Virus record (IMG/VR): IMGVR_UViG_3300044634_000818
Location: 1 to 39,626 of that record
From: a virus
Lineage: Duplodnaviria; Caudoviricetes
Strand: one strand, 5' to 3'
DNA: 39,626 bases
Shown here: positions 477-12,497 of the stretch, piece by piece
How the letters are laid out: each line of letters begins with the position of its first letter
Numbering within the stretch: the stretch's first letter is position 1
Made by a program: the position numbers and the translations under genes
The notes under the pieces: model-generated
Databases searched by the model: none
Seen by the model: only the letters and a program-made list of their open reading frames with translations
Told to the model about the DNA's origin: nothing

Positions 477-998
477 ATGAAACTACTTTTCGCTATTACT
501 TTCTGGTTCACATCCACAGTGGTGGGATCAGCATTAATGATTCAGTCTGTATACATCTATAGACACTTTACAACTCCAGACAATCCTATCAAGGTGGCAC
601 CTGTTAACAACAGAATTGTCATGGGACAATTAGCAGGTAGTAGAAACCTGGCATTTGGAGTTAAAGGTATCATGGAAGAATTCTTACAAGAAGATGGCTA
701 TGATGTTAGTGATGAAGCAACTAAGGAGATCAAGATAGAATTGTTGTATCTAGATGTTCTCAAAACGCAAACTAATTTATCAGTATTCCATCGCAACTCT
801 GACGCTGTTGTCATACGTATGAGAGGACAGTTGGTTGAAGATGGTAAAGTAAAGAAGACAGTAATAGTAGAAGAATCTGCTGAGGAAGTATCAATGGCTG
901 CATTGGTTATAGACGAAGGTGGAAAGTTTAATCAAACCAATTTATCAAGTGCACTTAAAAAGTCCTGTAATACATTAGTTAATAAACTTCTCAAATGA
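477..998 (+). CDS. Membrane-anchored CsgG/TolB-N-like alpha/beta protein, paralogous to 3427..4152
   Basis: N-terminal hydrophobic segment; LAFGVKGIMEEFLQE resembles VGLGVTNIVVEYLEE and KFNQTNLSSALKKS resembles KFNQSTIGTTTKKA of the CsgG-like ORF. Confidence 0.55.
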   Translation: MKLLFAITFWFTSTVVGSALMIQSVYIYRHFTTPDNPIKVAPVNNRIVMGQLAGSRNLAFGVKGIMEEFLQEDGYDVSDEATKEIKIELLYLDVLKTQTNLSVFHRNSDAVVIRMRGQLVEDGKVKKTVIVEESAEEVSMAALVIDEGGKFNQTNLSSALKKSCNTLVNKLLK

Positions 999-2719
999 AA
1001 AAACTCTTATTCCTAGTTCTAACCTTAGTAACATTTAATACTCTTGGTCAAAACGTTAAATTAAAACTTGGCTCTGACTCTACTAAAGTTGATATTGCTG
1101 GTGGCGTTATTGACAAAGGTGATGAGTTCATTGTTAACGTAGACCTGAATGGTAATGGTAACACTACTGCTCGCTCACTCTACTTTGATTTTGAATTCAA
1201 CAACGCTGCGTTTGAATTTGTTTCTGTTGCACACACTGGTACTGGTGGTAATGGTGGTGTTCTTCCTGCAGGATCTAGTATAGATCTTACAAACTATTTA
1301 TATCCTGGTTATACTTGGGTGGCTAACGCTAATAACAATACAACCAATGGTAATGCTAACTATCAGAATGCTGCTTATGCTTTCACATCTGGTGGTCCTA
1401 AGACTATCATGCGTGTGTATTTGAACTGGGCATCTCCTAATGCTTTACCATTTGCTGCATATAGTCCATTACTTAAGCTTCGTTTTAGATTAAAAACTAC
1501 AGCTGTTGGTAACTCCTGGGATCCTATAAAGATGAACTTTGGTGCTGCGTTTAATCAAGATGGTTCTACTGGTGCTACGTTAATGGAGGTTCCTCTAACT
1601 ACAATCATTACACAGAATCCTAACGCTACTAAACTTGTTAATGCTACAGTAGCATTAAGTAGTGCGTTGAATCCTGCTTACACTAAGGTGGCGTTTGTTA
1701 ATGCAACTACTAACCAAGGACCTTTATTTGATGTAACATCTAATGGTACTGTTAGCATTGTTGACTCATCACTTGCACCTAATACTCAGTATAAGATCAT
1801 GGTAATGTATAACATGGATCATATCCAAGCATTATACAACGCTGGTATTACAACATCTGATTACACAGCTGCACAGTCTGAGTTTATATCACAGAACTTA
1901 GATGGTACATTTAAGAACACAGTTATCACTAGTGGTGCTGGATATAAAGCTGCAGATGTTAATAGAAGTGGTAAGCTTGATGGTGGTGACTTAACTAGAT
2001 TATTTGCACAAGTAGTAAGTGTAGATCAATTAGTTGTACTTCCTGCTGGATATACAGCTGGATCTAATGGATACATGAGCTTCATGACATTTAAATCATC
2101 TGATTATAACGCTGCTACACCTGCTGATTGGCTTACTCGATTCCCTGTAGGACCTACACAGTATGTATATACTACTCCTGCTCAACGTGGTACACCAGAA
2201 ACGATTAACATTAGCTACTTATTGTTTGGTGACATAAATAAATCTAGTTCATCTACAGTTACACAAAATGGATCTTTAGTATTGAACAGAAGACTTGCAG
2301 TTAATCCTATTAGTGTAAGCTTAACAAACGCTGTAGTTACATCTAATTCAATTGAGATCCCTGTAAAAGTTTCCACAAATGGAAACAAAGTAGAAGCTTT
2401 ACAATTCCAATTCTCTTATGACACAAGTAAGTTGAAGTTTGAAGAGTTGAAGAACGAGATGCCTAACAACTGGCATGTGTTTGCTAACAAAGGTGAAGGA
2501 TATATTAAGTTTGGTGCATTAGATCAGAACCTTAAGACTCCTGTAGAAGGTGAGTTCACTCCATTCAAGTTACGCTTCACAGCATTACAGAATGGACTAG
2601 ACATCAATACATTTATTAGGGTTAGTCCTATCATGGATGCTGCTGACGCTAAAGGATCACAACTACCTATTAACATGAATACAGATAAAATTAAACTTAC
2701 AGGATACAATAACTTCTAA
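995..2719 (+). CDS. Secreted cohesin-dockerin-cohesin-like surface protein
   Basis: Sec signal peptide; cohesin-like segments (GDEFIVNVDL...YFDFEFNNAAFEFVSV; IEIPVKVS...ALQFQFSYDTSKLKFEEL); dockerin/EF-hand-like ADVNRSGKLDGGDL and GDIN. Confidence 0.7.
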   Translation: MKKLLFLVLTLVTFNTLGQNVKLKLGSDSTKVDIAGGVIDKGDEFIVNVDLNGNGNTTARSLYFDFEFNNAAFEFVSVAHTGTGGNGGVLPAGSSIDLTNYLYPGYTWVANANNNTTNGNANYQNAAYAFTSGGPKTIMRVYLNWASPNALPFAAYSPLLKLRFRLKTTAVGNSWDPIKMNFGAAFNQDGSTGATLMEVPLTTIITQNPNATKLVNATVALSSALNPAYTKVAFVNATTNQGPLFDVTSNGTVSIVDSSLAPNTQYKIMVMYNMDHIQALYNAGITTSDYTAAQSEFISQNLDGTFKNTVITSGAGYKAADVNRSGKLDGGDLTRLFAQVVSVDQLVVLPAGYTAGSNGYMSFMTFKSSDYNAATPADWLTRFPVGPTQYVYTTPAQRGTPETINISYLLFGDINKSSSSTVTQNGSLVLNRRLAVNPISVSLTNAVVTSNSIEIPVKVSTNGNKVEALQFQFSYDTSKLKFEELKNEMPNNWHVFANKGEGYIKFGALDQNLKTPVEGEFTPFKLRFTALQNGLDINTFIRVSPIMDAADAKGSQLPINMNTDKIKLTGYNNF

Positions 2720-2724
2720 CCACT

Positions 2725-3087
2725 ATGAGACAAGCATTAGTATTTATATTGTTCATTTTTCTAACACTTGCATGTTCTGATTTAGAACAATTTGAGAGCA
2801 CTCCAATAAATCTAGGTGCAAAAGCATCTAACACACAAATTTTGAGCGTTGTGTCTCAAGGTGTTAAGGCTACTATTACATACAACTTAACAGTGGGAGC
2901 TAAGTATTCTGTACAAGTGTACGAGTTTGGTAAGACAGAACCAACCAAGACTCTTCCTTTAACAGCTGAGGAAGAGATTGTAACTAAAGTGTATGACTTC
3001 AAAGACCTACAAGATGGTATCTATGATCTTACACTTACTGATGTAGCTGGTGTATCTATTAAAAAACCTTTAATCATTAAACGATAA
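2725..3087 (+). CDS. Lipoprotein with a T9SS C-terminal sorting domain (Ig-like) pattern
   Basis: Lipobox LTLA-C followed by acidic residues; SVQVYEFG...YDFKDLQDGIYDLTL...KKPLIIKR resembles a type A CTD. Confidence 0.55.
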   Translation: MRQALVFILFIFLTLACSDLEQFESTPINLGAKASNTQILSVVSQGVKATITYNLTVGAKYSVQVYEFGKTEPTKTLPLTAEEEIVTKVYDFKDLQDGIYDLTLTDVAGVSIKKPLIIKR

Positions 3088-3398
3088 TGTCAGAAGAACA
3101 AAATGATGGTACTTGGTCAGGGTTGGTCAAGACTATAGTAGGAACTGTAGGAACAATTGTAACAGCTGGTGGTGCTTACATAGGCTCACAGATGTTTGGT
3201 GGTGGAGAAGAGAAAGCTGAAGCTGCTCCTGCTGCTACCACAACTCCTGCACCTGTAATCAATATCACTACTAATAACTCTCAACAACAAGCAGCATCTG
3301 CTGGAGGCACAAAAGTTATTGAGCGTGTGGTAGAAAAACCTGCTAAACCTAAGGCTAAGACAGAAAAAGAGGCTTTGCAAGAAGAGCCTAAGTGGTAA
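3087..3398 (+). CDS. Small membrane protein with a Pro/Ala/Thr-rich linker
   Basis: Gly-rich hydrophobic segment IVGTVGTIVTAGGAYIG; TAATG coupling. Confidence 0.7.
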   Translation: MSEEQNDGTWSGLVKTIVGTVGTIVTAGGAYIGSQMFGGGEEKAEAAPAATTTPAPVINITTNNSQQQAASAGGTKVIERVVEKPAKPKAKTEKEALQEEPKW

Positions 3399-3426
3399 CG
3401 AAACCCCCTCTTAATGAGAAAACTAT

Positions 3427-4152
3427 ATGAAGAAATTAAGCTTTTTATTCAGTTTATTATTGAGTGTATTACTAACGTACAGCGTTAGTGGTCAGATTGC
3501 TACAACTAAGACAGAATCTTACACAGCTTCATTTGAAAAGAAGATCAACATAGACTCATTGATGGATTATGATGGCCCAACCATTCCTATTCAACTCTTA
3601 TCTCTTGGTATCAATGAAGACGTCTATACTTCTTATCCAGAACTCAAGGACAAACGAGTGGGTCTTGGTGTTACTAATATAGTTGTAGAGTACCTAGAGG
3701 AAACTAATAGGTTCATATTCACTGAAGACAAAGCTGAGATCAAGAATAGAATGGTCAAACAATTCCAGGCATCACAGTCTGGGATAACTCAAGATAAATT
3801 AGATGGACGTGGTAAGATACGCCTAGCTAAATATTTTGTATACATTGAGGTGTATGACTTTTCTGTTTCTGAAGACGAATCATTATCTTTGAAAGGTAAT
3901 GTAAAGCAAACTGTGGTAACACGACTAGGTCTACAGGTCAAATTTGTAGACGCTGAGACTGGAGCTTACTTCACTGGTTCAGGTTTGGGCACAGCTCAAA
4001 CTACTAGAGAAGCAACATTGATGAACGATGCTAACTTTACTGATGTTAAGTTTAATCAATCCACCATTGGCACAACGACTAAGAAGGCACTTGAAGATGC
4101 TGCTAGCAAGATTGTGGTAAGGATGATAAAAAAGAAAATATTCACTAAATAA
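3427..4152 (+). CDS. csgG: CsgG/HfaB-family (curli transport channel-like) protein
   Basis: Signal peptide; IVVEYLEETNRFIFTE and RLGLQVKFVDAETG match the CsgG family pattern (L..sgrF.vvER; v.lrlvDv.TG). Confidence 0.7.
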   Translation: MKKLSFLFSLLLSVLLTYSVSGQIATTKTESYTASFEKKINIDSLMDYDGPTIPIQLLSLGINEDVYTSYPELKDKRVGLGVTNIVVEYLEETNRFIFTEDKAEIKNRMVKQFQASQSGITQDKLDGRGKIRLAKYFVYIEVYDFSVSEDESLSLKGNVKQTVVTRLGLQVKFVDAETGAYFTGSGLGTAQTTREATLMNDANFTDVKFNQSTIGTTTKKALEDAASKIVVRMIKKKIFTK

Positions 4153-4161
4153 ATAAAACCA

Positions 4162-4500
4162 ATGTTAGAAAAACTAATCATTGCTGGTTCGATTGCATTA
4201 GTTGCATCGATCTACCCTGCTATTAAGATATATCAGGGAGCCAAGATACCTATGTATCAAACTCGTATCTCTAATCTAGAACACAAACTAGAAGTTATTA
4301 AAGTAACAGAAAGCGATCCTGCAGCACGTTACGTAAAGATTTCTAAGGTTGAAGGTAAGATCTTCAAACTACGTGGCAAGATCAAAGAGCGTCAGAAGAT
4401 TAAAGCTATGGAAGCTAAATGGGATTATCAAGATGAGATGTTAAAGTTGAAGCGTTCACAAGTTTCTATTGACTCTACTCTTAAGCTTGAACCTAAGTAG
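4162..4500 (+). CDS. Membrane-anchored coiled-coil protein
   Basis: N-terminal TM segment (LIIAGSIALVASIYP) followed by basic heptad-rich helices. Confidence 0.7.
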   Translation: MLEKLIIAGSIALVASIYPAIKIYQGAKIPMYQTRISNLEHKLEVIKVTESDPAARYVKISKVEGKIFKLRGKIKERQKIKAMEAKWDYQDEMLKLKRSQVSIDSTLKLEPK

Positions 4501-5669
4501 TGAAATGGTTATTGACTGTTACATTACTACTGATGTGGAACTTGTGCGATGCACAGGTTCTTACACAGATTTATGTAGATCCATGTAATGGTCAAGTACT
4601 CACTGTAGTTGTTCCTATTAGTAATGGGACAGTTACAATTGTTTATAGAGGTAAGGCTAAGGTAGTTACAGCAAATGACATAACGTCAGGAGCTTTAACA
4701 GCGTGGATCAATATGATCAACTCTACACCTTGTCCACAAACAACTACAGCTACAACCCTTGTTGTAACACAGGCAGTTGCTCAAGCTACACAGCAAGCAA
4801 CTCAACAGGCTACAGCTCAGGCAACACAAGCTGCTACAGCTGCTGCAACTAGTAGTGCTACTAGTAGTGCTACAAGTGCAGCTACCTCATCAGCAGTTGC
4901 TTCAACACCAACACCTGCTCCTGCAGCGAGCCCATCATCTAGCAGTAGTTCTTCTACTAGTAGTGAGACTAAGAGTGAGAGTAGTTCAGAGAGTAAAACA
5001 GAAAGTAAATCAGAAGAGAAGTCAGAAAGCAAAAGTGAATCTAAAGAGAAAAAGAGTGATGATAAAAAGTCTTCTAAATCTTCCAGCAAGGCTGCTGCTA
5101 AAGTTAATCCTATTGTGTATAGTTCTGATCTTACTGTTCTCAGTGGACCTGATGTTCCTCTCAGTGCTATTATATCATTGGGTGCGTCACAATCCTCACT
5201 CCTTGGGAACGTGTCTTATGGACTTACCTCTATGATATGGAGTTCCTTTAATCAGTTTGCTCTATCAAGTAGATACACAAGGATGGGTAAGGTGATAAAG
5301 AACTTTGGTTTGACAGGAGTATATCTACAAGGTAATACAATAGCGTTTGCTACAGCTGCTGCTATCAAACCAATAGGTAAAGGAGTTACAGGTTTCAACT
5401 ACGCTCTTACATATACAGGTGAGTGGGGCCATGGATTGATGGGCTTCTACACTAGACCATTTAGAGTAAATAAGTACTTATCGATGTCCCCAGACATCTA
5501 TGTTTCCAACTCTTTGACAAAAGATTTTGGTATACTAACAGGCTCTGGATTTGATGTATCACTTAGTAAAAGGTTTAGATTTAACTGTGGACTAAAGGTT
5601 AGCTTGAATACAAATCCTGCTGTACCTATAACATACATGGGTATGATAGGTACCAAGATCAATCTCTAA
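4500..5669 (+). CDS. Secreted protein with a low-complexity stalk and a putative C-terminal outer-membrane beta-barrel
   Basis: GTG start; signal peptide; small Cys-pair domain; QA/T/S and S-E-K repeat linker; C-terminal ~185 aa of alternating Gly/aromatic beta strands ending GTKINL. Confidence 0.65.
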   Translation: MKWLLTVTLLLMWNLCDAQVLTQIYVDPCNGQVLTVVVPISNGTVTIVYRGKAKVVTANDITSGALTAWINMINSTPCPQTTTATTLVVTQAVAQATQQATQQATAQATQAATAAATSSATSSATSAATSSAVASTPTPAPAASPSSSSSSSTSSETKSESSSESKTESKSEEKSESKSESKEKKSDDKKSSKSSSKAAAKVNPIVYSSDLTVLSGPDVPLSAIISLGASQSSLLGNVSYGLTSMIWSSFNQFALSSRYTRMGKVIKNFGLTGVYLQGNTIAFATAAAIKPIGKGVTGFNYALTYTGEWGHGLMGFYTRPFRVNKYLSMSPDIYVSNSLTKDFGILTGSGFDVSLSKRFRFNCGLKVSLNTNPAVPITYMGMIGTKINL

Positions 5670-5748: not shown

Positions 5749-5756
5749 TATATTTG
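5749..5756 (+). promoter_or_regulatory. Bacteroidota sigma70 -7 element (TAnnTTTG)
   Basis: TATATTTG in an AT-rich gap 21 nt upstream of ORF 5778. Confidence 0.55.
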
Positions 5757-5777: not shown

Positions 5778-5990
5778 ATGGCTATATCATCTAGACCTAC
5801 AGGGCAAGATCCAGTCTCACAACAATTGTGGAACATTTCTAAGCAAATGGAGCAATTGATTGGACAAGTGGGAGCTGTAGTTAGAAACACTGCAGGATTA
5901 ACTACTAGTACTACAACAAGTAGCACTACATCTACTACTACGTCTACAAGTACATCTACTACGACTACAACAACAACTGCAGCTCCTTAA
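5778..5990 (+). CDS. Small protein with a mucin-like Thr/Ser tail ending TTTTAAP
   Basis: Helical N-terminus plus ~26-residue T/S tract with mixed Thr codons. Confidence 0.8.
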   Translation: MAISSRPTGQDPVSQQLWNISKQMEQLIGQVGAVVRNTAGLTTSTTTSSTTSTTTSTSTSTTTTTTTAAP

Positions 5991-6015
5991 GAGCTTACAT
6001 TAAACCAACAACTAC

Positions 6016-7032
6016 ATGAAGGAATTAAAGTTTATCTGTGCTCAACCAGATGATACCTACTACACTTGGCAGGTACATCTATGGTTAGAAAGCTTAAGAA
6101 ACATTGGACATTCAGATAAGGCTATTGTACTTATCTTTATCCCATCATTCAGAGAAAAGAACCAGAAGTGGCAACAGATCGTAGATCTCTACCCAGAAGC
6201 AAAGTTCGAATTCTATAAAGATCAGGATGGTGTAAGTCAGAAACTAGGAATCTATATTCCTGTTCTACGTCCATATGTTCTAATGCGTTATTGGCAAGAT
6301 CATCCAGACATGAAGAATCATGCTGTATTGTATTGTGACTCAGACGTATTGTTTACAGATAAGTTTAATGTTGACGCCTATATTAATGACGATATAAACT
6401 ATTTATCAGATACCAATAGCTACATCAACGCTTCATATTTTGACAGTAAGATACATCAAGTGCTTCCAGAAAGATTGGAAGCATATAAAGAACTAGATGT
6501 TCTTGAAGACATTGCCACTCAGTGTGGTATATCAAGAACAATAGCAGAAGCTAACAACGACCACTCAGGAGGTGCACAATATCTATTGAAGAATATTGAT
6601 GCTATGTTCTGGGAGAAGGTACTAAGAGATTGCATTACAATACGTAGTTATTTATTAAACATAAACAAACTATACTTCAAGGATGAATCTGCAGGCTTTC
6701 AAAGTTGGTGTGCTGACATGTGGGCTGTCCTCTGGGCTCTTTGGTTTAGAGGTGGGGTCACTAAGAATTTACCTGAAATGGAATTCTCTTGGTCGTCAGA
6801 TCCTATTGACAAAGTCCACAGGCTTGGCATCCTGCACAATGCAGGAATAGTAAACAAAAACATGGGTGACTACCCAGCATTTTATAAGGGTGAGTATATA
6901 ACTGGTAACGATCCATTTACTGATCCTCATTTAGAATATGTATTCAACGATGCAAGAGCACAAGAGAAAGGTACACACTACTATGTTGAGCAAATGATGA
7001 AACTTAAATTTAAGTATAAATTAAACTATTAA
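6016..7032 (+). CDS. GT-A fold glycosyltransferase resembling GT95 (HPAT) / GT96 (SERGT1) peptide O-glycosyltransferases
   Basis: DDTYYTWQ, YIPVLRPYVLMRYW, DxD motif YCDSD and WCADMW align in order with the remembered plant motifs Y..WQ, Y...N[RK]P....W, DAD/EPD and W..EMY. Confidence 0.7.
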   Translation: MKELKFICAQPDDTYYTWQVHLWLESLRNIGHSDKAIVLIFIPSFREKNQKWQQIVDLYPEAKFEFYKDQDGVSQKLGIYIPVLRPYVLMRYWQDHPDMKNHAVLYCDSDVLFTDKFNVDAYINDDINYLSDTNSYINASYFDSKIHQVLPERLEAYKELDVLEDIATQCGISRTIAEANNDHSGGAQYLLKNIDAMFWEKVLRDCITIRSYLLNINKLYFKDESAGFQSWCADMWAVLWALWFRGGVTKNLPEMEFSWSSDPIDKVHRLGILHNAGIVNKNMGDYPAFYKGEYITGNDPFTDPHLEYVFNDARAQEKGTHYYVEQMMKLKFKYKLNY

Positions 7033-7037
7033 TAAAA

Positions 7038-7283
7038 ATGGCAATTCAGAGAGATTTAAAAGCATTTGTTCGCTACGATGGTAGTGGAAGGGTTGTTGCA
7101 GGCAGCCTTATTCTGAGAAAGAACAAGCCAAAAGTGGGAAGATGGCAAGAGATTCCAGCATACGAGTGCTGTAATTATGTTCCTACAACTACGACTACAA
7201 CGTCTAGTACTTCTACGACTACTACCACTAGTACTAGTACGTCTACATCTACAACCACTACTACAACCACAGCAGCTCCTTAA
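7038..7283 (+). CDS. Thr/Ser-tailed protein, paralog A
   Basis: LKAFVRYDGSGRVVAGSLIL...WQEIPAYECCN plus ~29-residue T/S tract ending AAP. Confidence 0.85.
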   Translation: MAIQRDLKAFVRYDGSGRVVAGSLILRKNKPKVGRWQEIPAYECCNYVPTTTTTTSSTSTTTTTSTSTSTSTTTTTTTAAP

Positions 7284-7285
7284 TC

Positions 7286-7555
7286 ATGGCAAATAGCAAT
7301 AATCAATTGAAAGCATACGTTCGTTTCGATGGAACAGGACGTATTGTACCTAGCAGCTTAATCTTACAAAGATTTAAGCCTAAAGATGGTAATTGGCAAG
7401 AAATAGATGCAAAAGAATGTTGCAACTATATTCCTCCTACTACTACAACTACTAGTAGTTCTACAAGTACTACTACATCTACGTCAACGTCAACAAGTAC
7501 TACAACGTCAACATCTACTAGTACCACTACAACTACTACAACAGCAGCACCATAA
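7286..7555 (+). CDS. Thr/Ser-tailed protein, paralog B
   Basis: LKAYVRFDGTGRIVPSSLIL...WQEIDAKECCN plus ~35-residue T/S tract ending AAP. Confidence 0.85.
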   Translation: MANSNNQLKAYVRFDGTGRIVPSSLILQRFKPKDGNWQEIDAKECCNYIPPTTTTTSSSTSTTTSTSTSTSTTTSTSTSTTTTTTTAAP

Positions 7556-7968
7556 TGGCTAAATCATTATTCCCACAAGAAATGTTAAGTAAAGCAACTG
7601 GTAGCGAGCTCTCATTAGAGAGCATCGCTGCTAAGCTTACTTACTTTCATGAGCAATTACACTTGACTCACTGGCAAACAAAAAGCTATGCAGAACATCA
7701 AGCCACAGGAGCATTGTATGATTACGTACATGATTTCAAAGATGGATTGATTGAGAAGCTTATGGGCTATACAGGTAAGAGACCTGGAGCTTATAAAATA
7801 GAACCTCTTACAGACTGTACAGCTGAACAATGTGTATCAGATATAATGTCATTCGCATCATCATTAAAGATGTATGGTGAAAAGAATGCTTATCATGATG
7901 TATGTAACTTAGCTGATGCATTATCTGGTGAGGCAGCCAAAACTAAATACCTATTAACCTTGTCTTAA
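7555..7968 (+). CDS. Ferritin/Dps-like four-helix protein (DUF5856-like)
   Basis: LHLTHWQTKSYAEHQATGALYD...DGLIE and C-terminal KYLLTL resemble Dps-like ferroxidase motifs. Confidence 0.75.
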   Translation: MAKSLFPQEMLSKATGSELSLESIAAKLTYFHEQLHLTHWQTKSYAEHQATGALYDYVHDFKDGLIEKLMGYTGKRPGAYKIEPLTDCTAEQCVSDIMSFASSLKMYGEKNAYHDVCNLADALSGEAAKTKYLLTLS

Positions 7969-8543: not shown

Positions 8544-8968
8544 TGAACATTAAAGAATTTGATATGGGCAAGTACATCTTACTAGTTGGTAAGGATGCTA
8601 CTGACATATTCAAATACTATAAGGTTAAAGAAATGCATGGGCTTAATCTAAAAGACGCTCAAGCAGAAGAGGTTGATAAGACTAAAGGTAATGGTGTATA
8701 CATCTATGGATTGACAAACTACGATCCAGCAGATAAAAAGCTAACAGCTAAAGCTCCTTATAAACCTTTTCTGTTTTTAAACATGGGCACATTTAAAAGA
8801 TATAGTGCTGATGAACAGAAGACAGCGATAATGCATGAGACTATGCACATGGCACTTCTTCTTTATAAATGGGACGCTGAGAAAAAGTCAGAAGAAATAG
8901 TAACAATGGCTGAAGATGAGGCTAATAAAATTATCAAAAAACTTAAAGGTATTAAACTTATAAAGTAA
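8543..8968 (+). CDS. Putative zincin-like metallopeptidase
   Basis: HExxH motif (IMHETMHMAL) with a downstream EE. Confidence 0.55.
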   Translation: MNIKEFDMGKYILLVGKDATDIFKYYKVKEMHGLNLKDAQAEEVDKTKGNGVYIYGLTNYDPADKKLTAKAPYKPFLFLNMGTFKRYSADEQKTAIMHETMHMALLLYKWDAEKKSEEIVTMAEDEANKIIKKLKGIKLIK

Positions 8969-9165
8969 TGGCAAAAATGAAAAAGATGGGTGAGTTATCT
9001 GCAGGTGTAGGTTCTCAACCTAAACGTGTAGGACCTGTTGATCCTAAAGGTGCATGGACTAAAGTACAAGAGCGTACATTAGCTGGTACAAAAGGTGGCA
9101 AACCTTCATTGAAAAAAGATAAGCAGCTTGGTGCTACCAAGATGGGTGCTAAGAAGAAGAAGTAA
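8968..9165 (+). CDS. Small Lys/Gly-rich protein
   Basis: TAATG-coupled, highly basic. Confidence 0.7.
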   Translation: MAKMKKMGELSAGVGSQPKRVGPVDPKGAWTKVQERTLAGTKGGKPSLKKDKQLGATKMGAKKKK

Positions 9166-9392
9166 TGATCTTTGAACCTGCTAACAGAATAGATGTAGCT
9201 ACACCTAAAGGAGATGGCATCATCTGGCTTGTTACAGAATATGGTCATGAAACTGACACAATGTATACGATTATCATTAACGCCACTGGGGAGCTCTGGC
9301 AATTTACTCATAAAGATATTAGGGTAAAACCTAATACAACATTTAAAAGGTATGGCAAAGCAATGGATCCAGAAGGCAACAGCCTCCATTAA
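9165..9392 (+). CDS. Hypothetical protein (SH3-like beta pattern)
   Basis: VATPKGDGIIWLVTEYG...TGELWQF. Confidence 0.7.
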   Translation: MIFEPANRIDVATPKGDGIIWLVTEYGHETDTMYTIIINATGELWQFTHKDIRVKPNTTFKRYGKAMDPEGNSLH

Positions 9393-9510
9393 ACGTAGAG
9401 GTACAGAGGGCAAATGCACTCCTATCACTAAACCTGGTTGTACAGGTAGAGCTAAAGCCTTAGCAAAAACTTTCAAAAAAATGGCTGCAAAGCGTAAATC
9501 TAAACAATAA
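9352..9510 (+). CDS. Small basic protein (52 aa), absent from the ORF track
   Basis: MAKQWIQKATASIKRRGTEGKCTPITKPGCTGRAKALAKTFKKMAAKRKSKQ; fills the gap before 9517. Confidence 0.7.
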   Translation: MAKQWIQKATASIKRRGTEGKCTPITKPGCTGRAKALAKTFKKMAAKRKSKQ

Positions 9511-9516
9511 ATAAAC

Positions 9517-10029
9517 ATGGCACTCCCAAAGAAAAAGATGGCAGGTAAACCTGCAATGATGATGAAGAAAAAATCTTCAATGCGTAAAGCTAAAAATGGC
9601 GAAGAGGTAAAGACTGTAGAGAGAGGTGAAACAGGAGAAGTTAAAGTACGTCCTGGTTTTGGTAGAAGTATAAAAGACGTTGCACAAAATTTTTATAAAA
9701 TGGACGTTTTTGATGCTAAAGATGCTAAAACTAAAGCTGGTAAATTTATTCGTAAAGCAGGTAACACTGCTGTTAAAGCAGCACTTACACCAAGTTTGGC
9801 AGCAGGAGCTGTTCCTTATGGTGCAATGATGGCTACTGAACGTGCTATTAAAAACAAACAAGATCTTAATAAAATCCCTGAGAATAAGATGGGTGGTAAA
9901 GTGAAGAAAGCTGCTATGGGAGCTTCTTTAAAACCTGTACCTGCTGGTAAGAAAGGTTTAGCTAAACTTCCTACGCCTGTAAGAAACAAGATGGGCTTCC
10001 AGAAGAATGGTGGTAAAATGAAAAAATAA
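9517..10029 (+). CDS. Lys-rich protein with K-x-G-G-K motifs
   Basis: NKMGGKVKK, QKNGGKMKK, KKGLAKLPTPVRNKMG. Confidence 0.8.
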   Translation: MALPKKKMAGKPAMMMKKKSSMRKAKNGEEVKTVERGETGEVKVRPGFGRSIKDVAQNFYKMDVFDAKDAKTKAGKFIRKAGNTAVKAALTPSLAAGAVPYGAMMATERAIKNKQDLNKIPENKMGGKVKKAAMGASLKPVPAGKKGLAKLPTPVRNKMGFQKNGGKMKK

Positions 10030-10313
10030 TGGCATCTATAAGAAAGCCTGGTCCATATAATCCTCAGAAGGCTACAGCCTATGTAGGTAAAGGAGTGCTC
10101 AGAAATGGTGATAGTATCCCTGCAATCAAGGGAGCTATCACACCTGTGCCTAAGGGTCATCTTATTAAGAAGGATGGAACATCATTAAAGAATGGTGGTA
10201 AGGTAGATGCTTTTAGTAAGATTAAAAAAGCCATGAAGCCTAAAAAACAAAAGCTTTTTATGGATAAGATTAAGAAAAATCTATCCAAGGTTCAACCTAT
10301 TAAGAACAAGTAA
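10029..10313 (+). CDS. Lys-rich protein with a KNGGK motif
   Basis: TAATG-coupled; LKNGGKV. Confidence 0.75.
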   Translation: MASIRKPGPYNPQKATAYVGKGVLRNGDSIPAIKGAITPVPKGHLIKKDGTSLKNGGKVDAFSKIKKAMKPKKQKLFMDKIKKNLSKVQPIKNK

Positions 10314-10567
10314 TGGCTAAATCAGAAGCTTGGCAACGTAAGGAAGGTAAGAACCCTTCTGGTGGCCTAAATGCAAAAGGTAGGGCATCCTACAATAGAG
10401 CTAACCCAGGTAAGCCTGGTCTTAAAGCTCCTCAACCTGAAGGTGGTCCTCGTAAGAAGTCATTCTGTGCTAGGATGTCAGGTATGAAAAAGAAATTAAC
10501 TAGCTCTAAGACAGCTAACGATCCTAATTCTCGTATCAATAAATCTCTACGTAAGTGGAAGTGTTAA
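10313..10567 (+). CDS. Conserved basic phage protein (DUF6321-like)
   Basis: GKNPSGGLNAKGRASYN...LKAP...RKKSFCARMSG...SLRKWKC. Confidence 0.75.
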   Translation: MAKSEAWQRKEGKNPSGGLNAKGRASYNRANPGKPGLKAPQPEGGPRKKSFCARMSGMKKKLTSSKTANDPNSRINKSLRKWKC

Positions 10568-10568
10568 G

Positions 10569-10721
10569 ATGGCAAAGCAAATGATTAAACGTGCTGATGG
10601 TTCTACCTCTCAGCGTGGTTTATGGGACAATATTCGTGCCAACAAGGGAAGTGGAAAGAAGCCAACTTCAGCAATGTTAAAGCAAGAAAAGAAAATTAAA
10701 GCTCAAACTAAAAAGAAATAA
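10569..10721 (+). CDS. Small basic protein (50 aa), absent from the ORF track
   Basis: MAKQMIKRADGSTSQRGLWDNIRANKGSGKKPTSAMLKQEKKIKAQTKKK; fills the gap between neighbours. Confidence 0.7.
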   Translation: MAKQMIKRADGSTSQRGLWDNIRANKGSGKKPTSAMLKQEKKIKAQTKKK

Positions 10722-10723
10722 TA

Positions 10724-10975
10724 ATGGCAACAATGAAAAAAGCAGAAGCTGGTGCGTCTATGCCTAAGAAACCTGCTGCTAAAAAACCAATGGCTCCTGC
10801 TCCTAAGAAGAAAAAATCATATCCTATTCTTTCTGATGATGGGGAGAACTATAATGGACCTAAGGTTGGACCTCGTGAGAAAACTCCTGGTGGTGGTTTT
10901 TCTAAAAATGGATCTAAGATTAAAATGGCCAAGAAAGGTGCTTCTATAAAGAAATGCAAATATGGCTGCAAGTAA
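10724..10975 (+). CDS. Small Lys/Pro/Ala-rich protein
   Basis: KKPAAKKP, SKNGSK, AKKG. Confidence 0.75.
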   Translation: MATMKKAEAGASMPKKPAAKKPMAPAPKKKKSYPILSDDGENYNGPKVGPREKTPGGGFSKNGSKIKMAKKGASIKKCKYGCK

Positions 10976-11132
10976 GAAAACAAAACCTGTGCTTAAGATG
11001 CACAAACCTGCAAAGGCTCCTAAGGTAGCACCTCCTAAACCAGTTAATGGTAATTATATGAGAGAGGCTGATACGCCAACGCGTCTTAGAAGTAAGATGT
11101 GGCCTTTGAAACAAAAGAGACTTTCTAAGTAA
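10962..11132 (+). CDS. Small basic protein (56 aa), absent from the ORF track
   Basis: MAASKKTKPVLKMHKPAKAPKVAPPKPVNGNYMREADTPTRLRSKMWPLKQKRLSK. Confidence 0.65.
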   Translation: MAASKKTKPVLKMHKPAKAPKVAPPKPVNGNYMREADTPTRLRSKMWPLKQKRLSK

Positions 11133-11174: not shown

Positions 11175-11206
11175 AAAAAGGAGACCATTGGCCTCCTTTT
11201 TCTTTT
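11175..11206. terminator. Bidirectional intrinsic terminator between the convergent blocks
   Basis: AAAAAGGAG-accattggc-CTCCTTTTT with flanking A and T tracts. Confidence 0.8.
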
Positions 11207-11871
11207 TACAATTGACCATAATAGTCTTCTTTGAAATGTGGACTGAGATTTATAATCCCATTCTCCTTATTAAGTACCTTATCTGTTCTTTTTAATATTT
11301 CTTCACTTGGTAAATCTCCCATACCAGATATGTGTACTGTAGCCATTCCCCATCTATAAATCATTGTTGGTTTAGATATGGTGAATACATCTGCTTTATG
11401 ACCAAAGGTTATATCAGCATCTTCTCCACAACTTGAATCTGGCCAAGTAATTCTATCTAGATAGGACTTACTATAACAGTTACCATTATTGATATTATCA
11501 TTAGCTTGTTTGTATTTATTATCTACAAAGAAGTAATGTGATGAGCTTCTATACACATCATGACCAGGATGATTAATGATTGCTTCAGACATAATGGATA
11601 GTCCCTCGTCTGCAATAAGATCATCATCGTCTAATCTATAGATATAATCATTTATACACTGCTTATAACCCCACTCCAGCTTAGCAGCTATTGATAGAAA
11701 TCTTTCCTTACAGTTAAAGATCTTAACTCTAGGATGGTCGTACACATACTCTACCTTAGGACTATCGTTAACTACAACCATTTCATAGTCACCATCCTGT
11801 TGTAAGAATGACTCAATAGCCTCTTCAAGAAGGTGATGACGTTGGTAGGTAATTGTTAGTACACTAATCAT
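11206..11871 (-). CDS. Family 2 glycosyltransferase
   Basis: ISVLTITYQR..LLEEAIESFLQQ, VVVND, LDDDD and GED motifs. Confidence 0.85.
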   Translation of the reverse strand: MISVLTITYQRHHLLEEAIESFLQQDGDYEMVVVNDSPKVEYVYDHPRVKIFNCKERFLSIAAKLEWGYKQCINDYIYRLDDDDLIADEGLSIMSEAIINHPGHDVYRSSSHYFFVDNKYKQANDNINNGNCYSKSYLDRITWPDSSCGEDADITFGHKADVFTISKPTMIYRWGMATVHISGMGDLPSEEILKRTDKVLNKENGIINLSPHFKEDYYGQL

Positions 11872-12497
11872 ACATTCATCTTATATACATAATGTAAATC
11901 AGTGTCAACTAATTCGTCATTATATTGAGTTATTACATTTCTTTCAACATAGTAATCAACAACTTCTTTGATGTTACCAAAGTTATAGTCATCAAATACA
12001 ACAATACCACCTTGCTTTAGCATGAACTGTGTGTAGATAAAATCATTCATCACAGTGTGAGTCTCATGACCACCATCAATATGGATAAAATCAAAAGTGT
12101 GTAACTTATTAGTCTTTACATAGTCTACTAATGTAAGATTACTGTCACCATATATCTCTGTTATCTTTGCAGATGGATATGCGTTCTTGATATACTCTAC
12201 ACAAGGTCTAGTATAAGCATGGCCACCTAAATCAAATAGGAGATATTCTGCAGTGGGGTTAACACTGACCATTAGCAATAAGCTATGGCCAGCGTTAACG
12301 CCTATCTCACATATCTTTGACTTACCTTCAGCTAGCTTTAGTAGATTATGAATCTTAGCTTCATTTCTATCAGCTACAAGATTATCTGACGTTATATCAC
12401 ATATCAAATTACCTTCCACTCTTTCTCCAACACTATCTAATATATTAGCAATGTTGGATATGTGTCCTTTGACTTCTTCTGTAAGTATATCGATCAT
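11868..12497 (-). CDS. Class I SAM-dependent methyltransferase (Methyltransf_24-like)
   Basis: ICEIGVNAGHS, GDS, FDFIHIDGGH, LKQGGIVVFDDY. Confidence 0.85.
   Translation of the reverse strand: MIDILTEEVKGHISNIANILDSVGERVEGNLICDITSDNLVADRNEAKIHNLLKLAEGKSKICEIGVNAGHSLLLMVSVNPTAEYLLFDLGGHAYTRPCVEYIKNAYPSAKITEIYGDSNLTLVDYVKTNKLHTFDFIHIDGGHETHTVMNDFIYTQFMLKQGGIVVFDDYNFGNIKEVVDYYVERNVITQYNDELVDTDLHYVYKMNV

What the first reader, a model, noticed from the sequence alone, without database searches (positions are those of the whole stretch)
5778..7555. Putative phage protein O-glycosylation cassette: GT95/GT96-like transferase flanked by three mucin-like substrates
Seen: one promoter-led unit in which a DxD glycosyltransferase sits among three small genes with 26-35-residue Thr/Ser tails, all ending TTTTTTT-AAP. 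The tails use mixed codons (ACT/ACA/ACG/ACC, AGT/TCT/TCA), so they look selected as protein rather than produced by slippage. Two heads are paralogs (VR[YF]DG.GR...WQEI...ECCN); the third is unrelated, so the tail behaves as a portable tag. None has a signal peptide. Known: the enzyme's ordered motifs (YYTWQ; Y...RP......W; DSD; WCADMW) resemble, from memory, plant hydroxyproline O-arabinosyltransferase (GT95) and peptidyl-serine alpha-galactosyltransferase (GT96), which glycosylate hydroxy-amino-acid-rich repeats. Inference: the phage O-glycosylates its own mucin-like proteins in the cytoplasm, perhaps as a virion glycan coat for adhesion or shielding. I know of no description of such an enzyme-plus-substrate cassette in Bacteroidota phages.
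Basis: partly seen in the sequence, partly recalled or inferred. Interest (0 to 1): 0.9.

Follow-up and report, generated by a model that had tools for sequence, protein, structure and literature searches.

The report
Phage glycosyltransferase with threonine-tagged targets
A lake-water crAss-like phage carries an unnamed gene, predicted to encode a sugar-transferring enzyme, between three tiny genes that end in long threonine/serine tails; in unrelated phages the same gene is present or absent together with such tails on head and tail proteins, so it likely adds sugars to the virus particle, though no sugar has been measured.

Summary
Observation confirmed. Gene 6016-7032 encodes a PHROG 4417 protein ('unknown function') with a confident GT-A model closest to GT8/GT24 enzymes and conserved DxD and His. 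All 65 distinct clade loci have a poly-Thr ORF within 2 kb. In three unrelated Firmicutes phage sets, poly-Thr C-termini on the capsid or tail protein were present in 52 of 52 enzyme-positive and 0 of 85 enzyme-negative distinct loci, with at least 8 changes on the trees. Two proviruses keep a tail on another protein without the enzyme. The clade is crAss-like; its auxiliary-capsid homologue ends in a Thr/Ser tail in 79 of 80 loci. The two head modules elsewhere carry collagen or fibre-type passengers, but virion location is inferred. GT95/GT96 membership is not shown (HPAT below cut-off). Verdict: likely virion O-glycosylation, a new variant of what is reported for mycobacteriophages; donor sugar unknown. 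The scan reported this system before on other genomes.

The parts
5749..5756 (+). TATATTTG, TAnnTTTG-type promoter element (Bacteroidota -7 consensus, recalled) ahead of the cassette
   Evidence: 54 of 79 distinct upstream regions vs shuffle mean 5.3, max 11
5778..5990 (+). 70-aa protein: head A module (about 40 aa; clade consensus MAIPSRQIGW..LLWQISKQLE) plus Thr/Ser tail; inferred acceptor, inferred virion anchor
5901..5978 (+). 26-residue Thr/Ser run (19 T, 7 S), mixed codons
6016..7032 (+). 338-aa predicted GT-A glycosyltransferase, PHROG 4417; D108-x-D110 at 6337-6345, H274, K291 conserved
7038..7283 (+). 81-aa protein: head B module (about 48 aa, AYVRYDG..PKVG.W.EI..ECC) plus Thr/Ser tail
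7185..7271 (+). 29-residue Thr/Ser run (22 T, 7 S)
7286..7555 (+). 89-aa protein: second head B paralogue plus Thr/Ser tail
7439..7543 (+). 35-residue Thr/Ser run (24 T, 11 S)
7555..7968 (+). Dps/ferritin-like DUF5856 gene, overlapping the last stop codon; conserved downstream neighbour, probably same transcript, no known role in the system

Best explanation
The 338-aa protein is predicted to be a soluble, metal-dependent glycosyltransferase that likely attaches the first sugar to runs of threonine (and serine) on the phage's own particle proteins, and the three neighbouring mini-proteins are likely such targets. Shown: GT-A model with conserved DxD/His; tight linkage to poly-Thr ORFs; joint presence/absence with poly-Thr C-termini on capsid and tail proteins of unrelated phages; a conserved Thr/Ser tail on the clade's auxiliary-capsid homologue. 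Inferred: (1) in the infected cell's cytoplasm the enzyme uses a host nucleotide-sugar with Mn2+/Mg2+ (donor unknown; retention of configuration guessed from GT8-type neighbours); (2) it reads a run of about 5 or more Thr rather than a folded domain, which is why the tag can be grafted on unrelated proteins; (3) heads A and B are N-terminal docking modules that elsewhere carry collagen or fibre-type domains and here carry only the tail, by analogy with the short N-terminal anchors of crAss001 head fibres; (4) further phage GT2/GT4/GT9 genes may extend the glycans; (5) the result would be a hydrated glycan brush that shields the particle or mediates adhesion.
For: Fold: pLDDT 97.3; Foldseek best glycogenin E 4.7e-7, TM 0.45; VIA Z 14.1 glycogenin (rmsd 3.6, 229 aligned), 14.0 LgtC, 13.8 Skp1 galactosyltransferase, 13.7 UGGT. 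D108 54/55, D110 55/55, H274 55/55, K291 55/55 in diverse rows. Family domains are fused to GT6, GT29, GT2-type and methyltransferase domains. Linkage: 65 of 65 distinct enzyme loci (from 80) have a T-run ORF within 2 kb; runs in 54 of 58 upstream and 54 of 60 downstream first-kb bins, 0-3 per bin beyond 2 kb. Cultured phages: 77 records at under 60% identity; of 9 regions read, 8 have poly-Thr ends on annotated head/tail genes and the ninth (MA9V-3) on an unannotated gene three upstream. Presence/absence: phiFL-type tail protein 12 enzyme+ all tailed on both tail and capsid protein, 15 enzyme- untailed (n=27); bIL285-type 14/14 vs 0/66 (n=80) and PLE3-type capsid 36/36 vs 1/37, the one being a contig that ends at the capsid gene (n=73). 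After dropping 0, 8 and 4 loci with short flanks or cut genes and collapsing identical DNA: 8/0/0/15, 9/0/0/40, 35/0/0/30 with 4, 1 and 3 changes on trees of the tail-free cores. Four enzyme-negative proviruses lack it genome-wide. Clade is crAss-like (Crass_capsid 4.7e-26, muzzle 4.3e-51); its 379-aa protein matches crAss001 capsid chain 7qof_a (333 aa, gp36 by length; Foldseek E 5.3e-10, VIA Z 11.4) and ends in a Thr/Ser tail in 79 of 80 loci, whereas crAss001 gp36 has none. T-runs in 7 of 72 and 8 of 70 ORFs on the structural-gene strand and 0 of 65 and 0 of 76 on the other strand of two near-complete relatives. Head A/B proteins of 100 aa or less carry a T-run in 63 of 67 and 78 of 82 cases; long forms carry collagen, Fib_succ_major or Lcl_C domains. 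Precedent: glycans at the C-termini of capsid and tail-tube subunits of mycobacteriophages (PMC12619734, PMC11256854 passages).
Against: No glycan, activity or virion proteomics exists for any member here. The fold does not pick the acceptor: LgtC (lipo-oligosaccharide) and WbbM (O-antigen) tie with protein-acting enzymes. Heads A and B show no sequence similarity to crAss001 gp21/gp29 or any PDB virion protein, so their place in the particle is analogy. Exceptions: proviruses L320 and L322 keep a poly-Thr tail on a downstream (tail-region) protein without the enzyme; L349 (56% identical enzyme, 4.6-kb contig) and bacterial loci L354-L356 have no T-run ORF; L167 has no 7-residue Thr/Ser run; 57 of 83 long head-A and 35 of 90 long head-B proteins have no run. 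Enzyme and tail are physically linked, so one recombination can move both; the bIL285 set gives only one change. The freshwater clade offers no enzyme-negative control. The aux-capsid model is of middling quality (pLDDT 66.7, rmsd 7-9). Host enzymes glycosylate Ser/Thr-rich regions in streptococci (PMC12041528, listing only).
Confidence: 0.72

Rival explanations
1. The enzyme does glycosylate the tails, but the three small proteins are not part of the particle: they would act as soluble decoys, primers or carriers in the infected cell, or be remnants of fibre genes that lost their passenger.
For: No sequence link of heads A/B to any solved virion protein; the cassette lies near lysis genes, far from the capsid genes; passengers are freely lost and swapped; glycogenin, a primer-forming enzyme, is the top fold match.
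Against: Long forms carry collagen and fibre-type domains; heads are conserved across the clade (62 and 63 of 65 loci); in other phages the tag sits on capsid and tail proteins; crAss001 head-fibre genes also lie apart from the capsid genes, gp29 among lysis genes.
Confidence: 0.11
2. The enzyme would extend a sugar first attached by a host or other phage enzyme rather than start the glycan on Thr/Ser.
For: Most GT8-type fold neighbours (LgtC, Skp1 galactosyltransferase, LARGE, GlyE) elongate glycans (roles from established knowledge); host Ser/Thr O-glycosylation exists in streptococci (listing).
Against: In small siphophages it is the only new gene that arrives with the tails, across hosts from Lactococcus to Clostridium and Bacteroidota; fusions pair it with typical elongating GT6/GT29/GT2 domains.
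Confidence: 0.07
3. The Thr/Ser runs are unmodified spacers, and the enzyme would modify a host surface glycan (serotype conversion or superinfection exclusion) or another non-protein acceptor.
For: LgtC and WbbM are tied top fold matches; the clade carries GT9/GT4 genes of LPS-type families; some homologues lack T-rich neighbours.
Against: Short terminal tails link nothing; tails on two separate genes appear and vanish with the enzyme; the gene sits inside head/tail operons; no membrane anchor.
Confidence: 0.06
4. The enzyme would modify phage DNA, or transfer a non-sugar group (for example a phospho- or nucleotidyl group) to the tails.
For: GT-A folds include nucleotidyl- and phosphotransferases (lower rows, Z about 9-10); phage GTs that modify DNA are common (PMC12619734 passage).
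Against: Top fold matches are sugar transferases at Z 13-14; the gene lies with structural genes, not with replication or base-modification genes, and tracks protein tags.
Confidence: 0.04

Closest known systems
Virion O-glycosylation of mycobacteriophages (Che8, Rita; Freeman et al. 2023, Cell Host Microbe 31:1216; paper not held, known from passages in PMC11256854 and PMC12619734)
   Same: Phage-encoded glycosyltransferases; glycans at the C-termini of capsid and tail-tube subunits; proposed shielding.
   Different: No Mycobacterium phage is among the 77 records that match this enzyme; here one small enzyme travels with a poly-Thr tag across Firmicutes and crAss-like phages, and the tags also sit on dedicated mini-proteins; here nothing is measured.
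CAZy GT8/GT24-type GT-A enzymes (glycogenin, LgtC, Skp1 alpha-galactosyltransferase, UGGT catalytic domain)
   Same: Fold, DxD and a C-terminal His.
   Different: 7-13% identity, TM about 0.45, no Pfam match; a separate sequence family (PHROG 4417).
Plant GT95 (HPAT1-3) and GT96 (SGT1)
   Same: Start O-glycans on hydroxy-amino-acid repeats; GT95 is related to GT8 and to GT96 (PMC4908140, PMC8012813 passages); weak HPAT hits in 3 of 105 members and an Atlas look-alike cluster with 10% HPAT labels.
   Different: Plant enzymes are ER/Golgi membrane proteins that need hydroxyproline; this one has no anchor and the tails are Thr/Ser with few Pro; no score above the HPAT cut-off.
crAss001 capsid decoration: auxiliary protein gp36, head fibres gp21 (trimer, residues 1-38 docked) and gp29 (dimer, residues 1-58 docked) (PMC10172136, section 6 read)
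   Same: The clade's 379-aa protein has the gp36 fold; two kinds of short N-terminal module with swappable passengers mirror the two head fibres in size and logic.
   Different: crAss001 gp36 has no Thr tail and crAss001 is not among the enzyme's matches; heads A/B have no detectable sequence similarity to gp21/gp29.
PBCV-1 capsid glycosyltransferase (PDB 2p6w)
   Same: Virus-encoded GT-A enzyme linked to capsid glycosylation; fold match Z 11.1.
   Different: Eukaryotic giant virus; weaker match than the GT8 set; no poly-Thr tag (recalled).

Membership tests
GT-A fold glycosyltransferase | Single Rossmann-like GT-A fold | tested here: met
   Z 13-14 to several GT-A enzymes over the whole length
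GT-A fold glycosyltransferase | Conserved DxD and C-terminal metal-binding His | tested here: met
   D108 54/55, D110 55/55, H274 55/55; metal role inferred from family knowledge
GT-A fold glycosyltransferase | Measured sugar transfer from a nucleotide-sugar | not testable with these tools
   needs an assay
PHROG 4417 | Full-length profile match | tested here: met
   E 1.6e-50 over 4-328; cultured homologues and a bacterial one also match
CAZy GT95/GT96 (HPAT/SGT1) | Profile match over the Pfam HPAT cut-off (23.9 bits) | tested here: not met
   query none; 3 of 105 members at E >= 0.012; 15.3 and 13.6 bits for two of them
CAZy GT95/GT96 (HPAT/SGT1) | Closest structural or profile-profile relative | tested here: inconclusive
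   no GT95/GT96 chain listed; Atlas cluster with 10% HPAT at 0.97; no plant sequences could be obtained for hhalign
CAZy GT95/GT96 (HPAT/SGT1) | ER/Golgi membrane anchor and hydroxyproline-containing acceptor | tested here: not met
   no hydrophobic segment (max 19-residue hydropathy 0.9) and pure Thr/Ser tails
CAZy GT8 | Sequence match to Glyco_transf_8 | tested here: not met
   no GT8 Pfam hit in query or 105 members at E <= 0.1; fold is GT8-like
Mycobacteriophage-type virion glycosylation | Phage glycosyltransferase linked to C-terminal Ser/Thr ends of virion proteins | tested here: met
   (genomic association only)
Mycobacteriophage-type virion glycosylation | Homology to the mycobacteriophage enzymes | tested here: inconclusive
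   no Mycobacterium phage among 77 tblastn records at E <= 0.01; remote homology not tested
Mycobacteriophage-type virion glycosylation | Glycans detected on virions, lost in the transferase mutant | not testable with these tools
   needs glycoproteomics
crAss-like phages (Crassvirales-like) | crAss-type capsid, ring, muzzle and auxiliary capsid proteins | tested here: met
   in relative G001 (enzyme 89% identical); the window itself lacks the structural module; formal taxonomy not tested
crAss001 head fibres gp21/gp29 | Homology of heads A/B to the docked N-terminal segments | tested here: inconclusive
   no sequence or profile similarity; very short domains; no structure of the heads was predicted

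The most novel reading that the evidence does not exclude
A portable two-part glyco-tag: one enzyme plus a poly-threonine run that phages of unrelated lineages graft onto any virion protein. In this crAss-like clade, heads A and B are the two capsid-pocket anchors, with the receptor-binding domain replaced by a bare mucin-like brush, so that fibres, auxiliary capsid protein and muzzle together build a mucin-like glycocalyx extended by the phage's GT2/GT4/GT9 genes. The same enzyme family serves as a peptide O-glycosyltransferase in Bacteroidota RiPP clusters and is the prokaryotic sister of plant GT95/GT96.
Probability: 0.3. Interest if true: 0.87.

Novelty: new variant of a known kind. Interest (0 to 1): 0.7.

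Why it matters
It would give a function to a large unannotated phage family (2,674 clusters at 90% identity; 834 at 50%) and extend virion glycosylation from mycobacteriophages to lake crAss-like phages and to dairy, gut and clinical Firmicutes phages. Near-identical prophage pairs with and without enzyme and tag (capsid proteins 94-100% identical) make the open question of what a phage glycan coat does directly testable, and bear on how antibodies, mucus and surfaces meet phages. A soluble enzyme that reads a short Thr run would also be a simple tool for O-glycosylating proteins in bacteria.

Tried and rejected
Sequence searches of the PDB with the enzyme and two alignments gave nothing significant. 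NCBIfam and Pfam gave no match for the enzyme. Pfam HPAT found no match in 5 related records or in 401 genomes of the phylum of G005, and nothing in the controls either, so this is uninformative. A search of longer proteins with alignment A2 returned 20 fused family members and no plant enzyme. No GT95/GT96 entry was listed in the fold searches. Heads A and B: no meaningful PDB, Atlas or cultured-phage match (the designed-repeat hits are repeat artefacts); no similarity to crAss001 gp21, gp22, gp29, gp39. A homotrimer prediction for head A was not obtained, so its oligomeric state is open. Sigma-70 promoter scan at chance level. An enzyme-negative control within the freshwater clade, anchored on the Dps-like gene, failed because every locus with enough upstream DNA had the enzyme. 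RNA runs held only 5-11% of the words and RNA contigs of relatives cannot show expression. Slippage as the origin of the tails was rejected. Literature: no description of this enzyme family or of poly-Thr tags found in searches (open-access PMC and bioRxiv full text only; supplements not searched; one search's single hit was seen as a listing only). Freeman et al. 2023 was not held.

Full report
Observation. The four ORFs, the three Thr/Ser tails (26, 29, 35 residues; mixed codons; longest identical-codon run 2-3) and the T7-AAP ends are as described. They are the only T5+ runs in the window. Contigs without differences from two lake DNA runs tile the region. A TAnnTTTG element (Bacteroidota promoter consensus, recalled) lies at 5749-5756 and in 54 of 79 distinct upstream regions of relatives against 5.3 expected. 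The AAP end is local to close kin, and the transcript probably continues into the overlapping Dps-like gene.

The enzyme. It has no Pfam or NCBIfam match and belongs to PHROG 4417, unknown function. The family is large: 2,674 clusters at 90% identity, 834 at 50%. A model from 105 sequences is confident (pLDDT 97.3) and has a GT-A fold; glycogenin, LgtC, Skp1 galactosyltransferase, UGGT and WbbM tie at Z 13.2-14.1 (Foldseek agrees). DxD (108-110), H274 and K291 are nearly invariant over 55 diverse rows. Fused forms carry GT6, GT29, GT2-type, methyltransferase or radical-SAM domains. So it is predicted to be a sugar transferase; the fold alone does not name donor or acceptor. The link to plant GT95/GT96 is weak: 3 of 105 members touch HPAT at E >= 0.012, below cut-off where shown, and one Atlas look-alike cluster has 10% HPAT labels. 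GT95 is described as related to GT8 and GT96 (PMC4908140, PMC8012813; passages), which fits but does not prove kinship.

The clade. Relatives are about 110-119 kb contigs in IMG/VR; near-identical sequence occurs in lake metagenomes. Relative G001 (enzyme 89% identical, 98% complete) has crAss-type capsid, ring and muzzle proteins. A Bacteroidota host is inferred from this, from the promoter element, from kin binned in Sediminibacterium and Cytophagales MAGs and from a phage-like region in a Chitinophaga chromosome; against it, the only cultured match to the capsid protein is a Leptolyngbya phage at 25% identity. All 65 distinct enzyme loci (of 80 fetched) have a poly-Thr ORF within 2 kb; runs fall in the first kb (54 of 58 upstream, 54 of 60 downstream) and nearly vanish beyond 2 kb. 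217 of 233 distinct T-run ORFs in these loci begin with head A or head B. Both heads are N-terminal modules with swappable passengers: bare tails in short forms (63 of 67 and 78 of 82), collagen, Fib_succ_major, Lcl_C and others in long forms. In two near-complete genomes T-runs occur only on the strand of the structural genes (7 of 72 and 8 of 70 ORFs, versus 0 of 65 and 0 of 76), including the muzzle and a 379-aa protein three genes after the capsid gene. That protein has the fold of crAss001 capsid chain 7qof_a, the auxiliary protein gp36 by length (model pLDDT 66.7), and ends in a conserved Thr/Ser tail in 79 of 80 loci, the other being a truncated frame. In crAss001 there are nine copies of gp36 per asymmetric unit, and two head fibres dock by residues 1-38 (trimer) and 1-58 (dimer) (PMC10172136, section 6). 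Heads A and B match these in size and modularity but not in sequence, so their docking is an analogy.

Unrelated phages. 77 cultured-phage records match the enzyme, mostly of Firmicutes, none of Mycobacterium. I read 9 of them, chosen to span genera: the gene lies in or next to head/tail genes, 8 have poly-Thr ends on annotated head or tail proteins, and MA9V-3 has a long Thr/Ser tract three genes upstream. Three controls were anchored on the structural protein. phiFL-type tail protein: 12 enzyme-positive loci all have tails on both tail and capsid protein, 15 negative loci have none. bIL285-type: 14 of 14 versus 0 of 66; PLE3-type capsid: 36 of 36 versus 1 of 37, that one on a contig ending at the capsid gene. 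After removing 0, 8 and 4 loci with short flanks or cut genes and collapsing identical DNA, the tables are 8/0/0/15, 9/0/0/40 and 35/0/0/30, with at least 4, 1 and 3 changes on trees of the tail-free cores. Four negative proviruses lack the enzyme genome-wide. Limits: genes are linked and phage trees recombine, so changes are not fully independent; L320 and L322 keep a tail on a downstream protein without the enzyme; L349 and L354-L356 have the enzyme without a T-run ORF.

Bacterial homologues. Four loci (L353-L356) place a fused form in RiPP-type clusters with double-glycine precursors, peptidase ABC transporters and grasp/SPASM, radical-SAM or lanthipeptide enzymes; the L353 precursor core starts with a Thr run. 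This independently suggests a peptide acceptor for the family, but it is four loci and untested.

Mechanism and verdict. Most likely (0.72) the enzyme starts O-glycans on Thr/Ser runs of the phage's own particle proteins in the cytoplasm, and the mini-proteins are anchors that display a glycan brush. Rivals: tails modified but proteins not in the particle (0.11), extension of a pre-existing sugar (0.07), host-surface acceptor (0.06), DNA or non-sugar transfer (0.04). It works like mycobacteriophage virion glycosylation (glycans at capsid and tail-tube C-termini; PMC12619734, PMC11256854, PMC12582341 passages; the primary paper was not held) but uses a different-looking enzyme family and a portable tag. 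I found no published description in searches, which miss subscription journals and supplements. The scan's earlier notes report the same system on other genomes; they are not independent support. Novelty: new variant of a known kind; interest 0.7.

Noticed in passing
L353:7609-9575, L354:4272-9755, L355:2294-9743, L356:3091-9728: Homologues fused to a C-terminal GT2/GT7C-like domain lie in Bacteroidota RiPP clusters (grasp-with-SPASM, radical SAM/SPASM, class I lanthipeptide); the L353 precursor core begins with a Thr run, the L354 precursor has Ser-Ala repeats. Possible glycosylated RiPPs.
   Followed up: partly
L087:5771-5890 (Enterococcus phage 9183, end of major capsid gene): A poly-Thr tail is encoded in the -1 frame across the capsid stop codon, after CCCAAAA, which resembles a known capsid frameshift signal (recalled from Lactobacillus phage A2); only a fraction of subunits would carry the tag.
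   Followed up: partly
L083:5911-5985 (Lactococcus prophage bIL285): The capsid gene stops just before an in-frame six-Thr tail that is translated in kin L207-L209; the tail-protein tag is kept.
   Followed up: partly
L359:2648-8775 (G001), L363:3948-10559 (G004, beyond the window's left end), L348:11246-14076, window 11206-12497: The clade carries further glycan genes: GT9, GT4, GT4, GT9 cluster near the fibre genes, a GT2 plus methyltransferase pair in the window, and four more GT-looking genes beside the cassette in L348. Could extend the glycans or act on other acceptors.
   Followed up: partly
window 477-5669: Run of genes with hydrophobic N-termini after the endolysin, including a cohesin/dockerin-domain protein (995-2719) and a 389-aa protein with a Ser/Ala/Thr/Lys low-complexity linker (4500-5669); look like exported host-surface proteins.
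   Followed up: no
window 8968-11132: Cluster of small, very Lys-rich basic ORFs (MAK.../MAT... starts), present in many relatives; function unknown.
   Followed up: no
L018, L020, L021, L024, L077-L079: In several relatives the enzyme's start is fused to or interrupted by an HNH/NUMOD-like homing-endonuclease ORF (MKDLKFICEEWR...), suggesting an intron or mobile insertion at the gene's 5' end.
   Followed up: no
L352 (Chitinophaga sp. YR573 chromosome, G005:C8 about 3,725,000-3,752,000): A phage-like region with a 5,485-aa protein, two copies of the enzyme and a degenerate head-B match lies inside a 4.8-Mb bacterial contig, suggesting an integrated crAss-like relative.
   Followed up: partly
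L362:4857-6410 (G001 capsid protein): The only cultured-phage match is Leptolyngbya phage Lbo-JY46 (25% identity), odd for a clade inferred to infect Bacteroidota.
   Followed up: no
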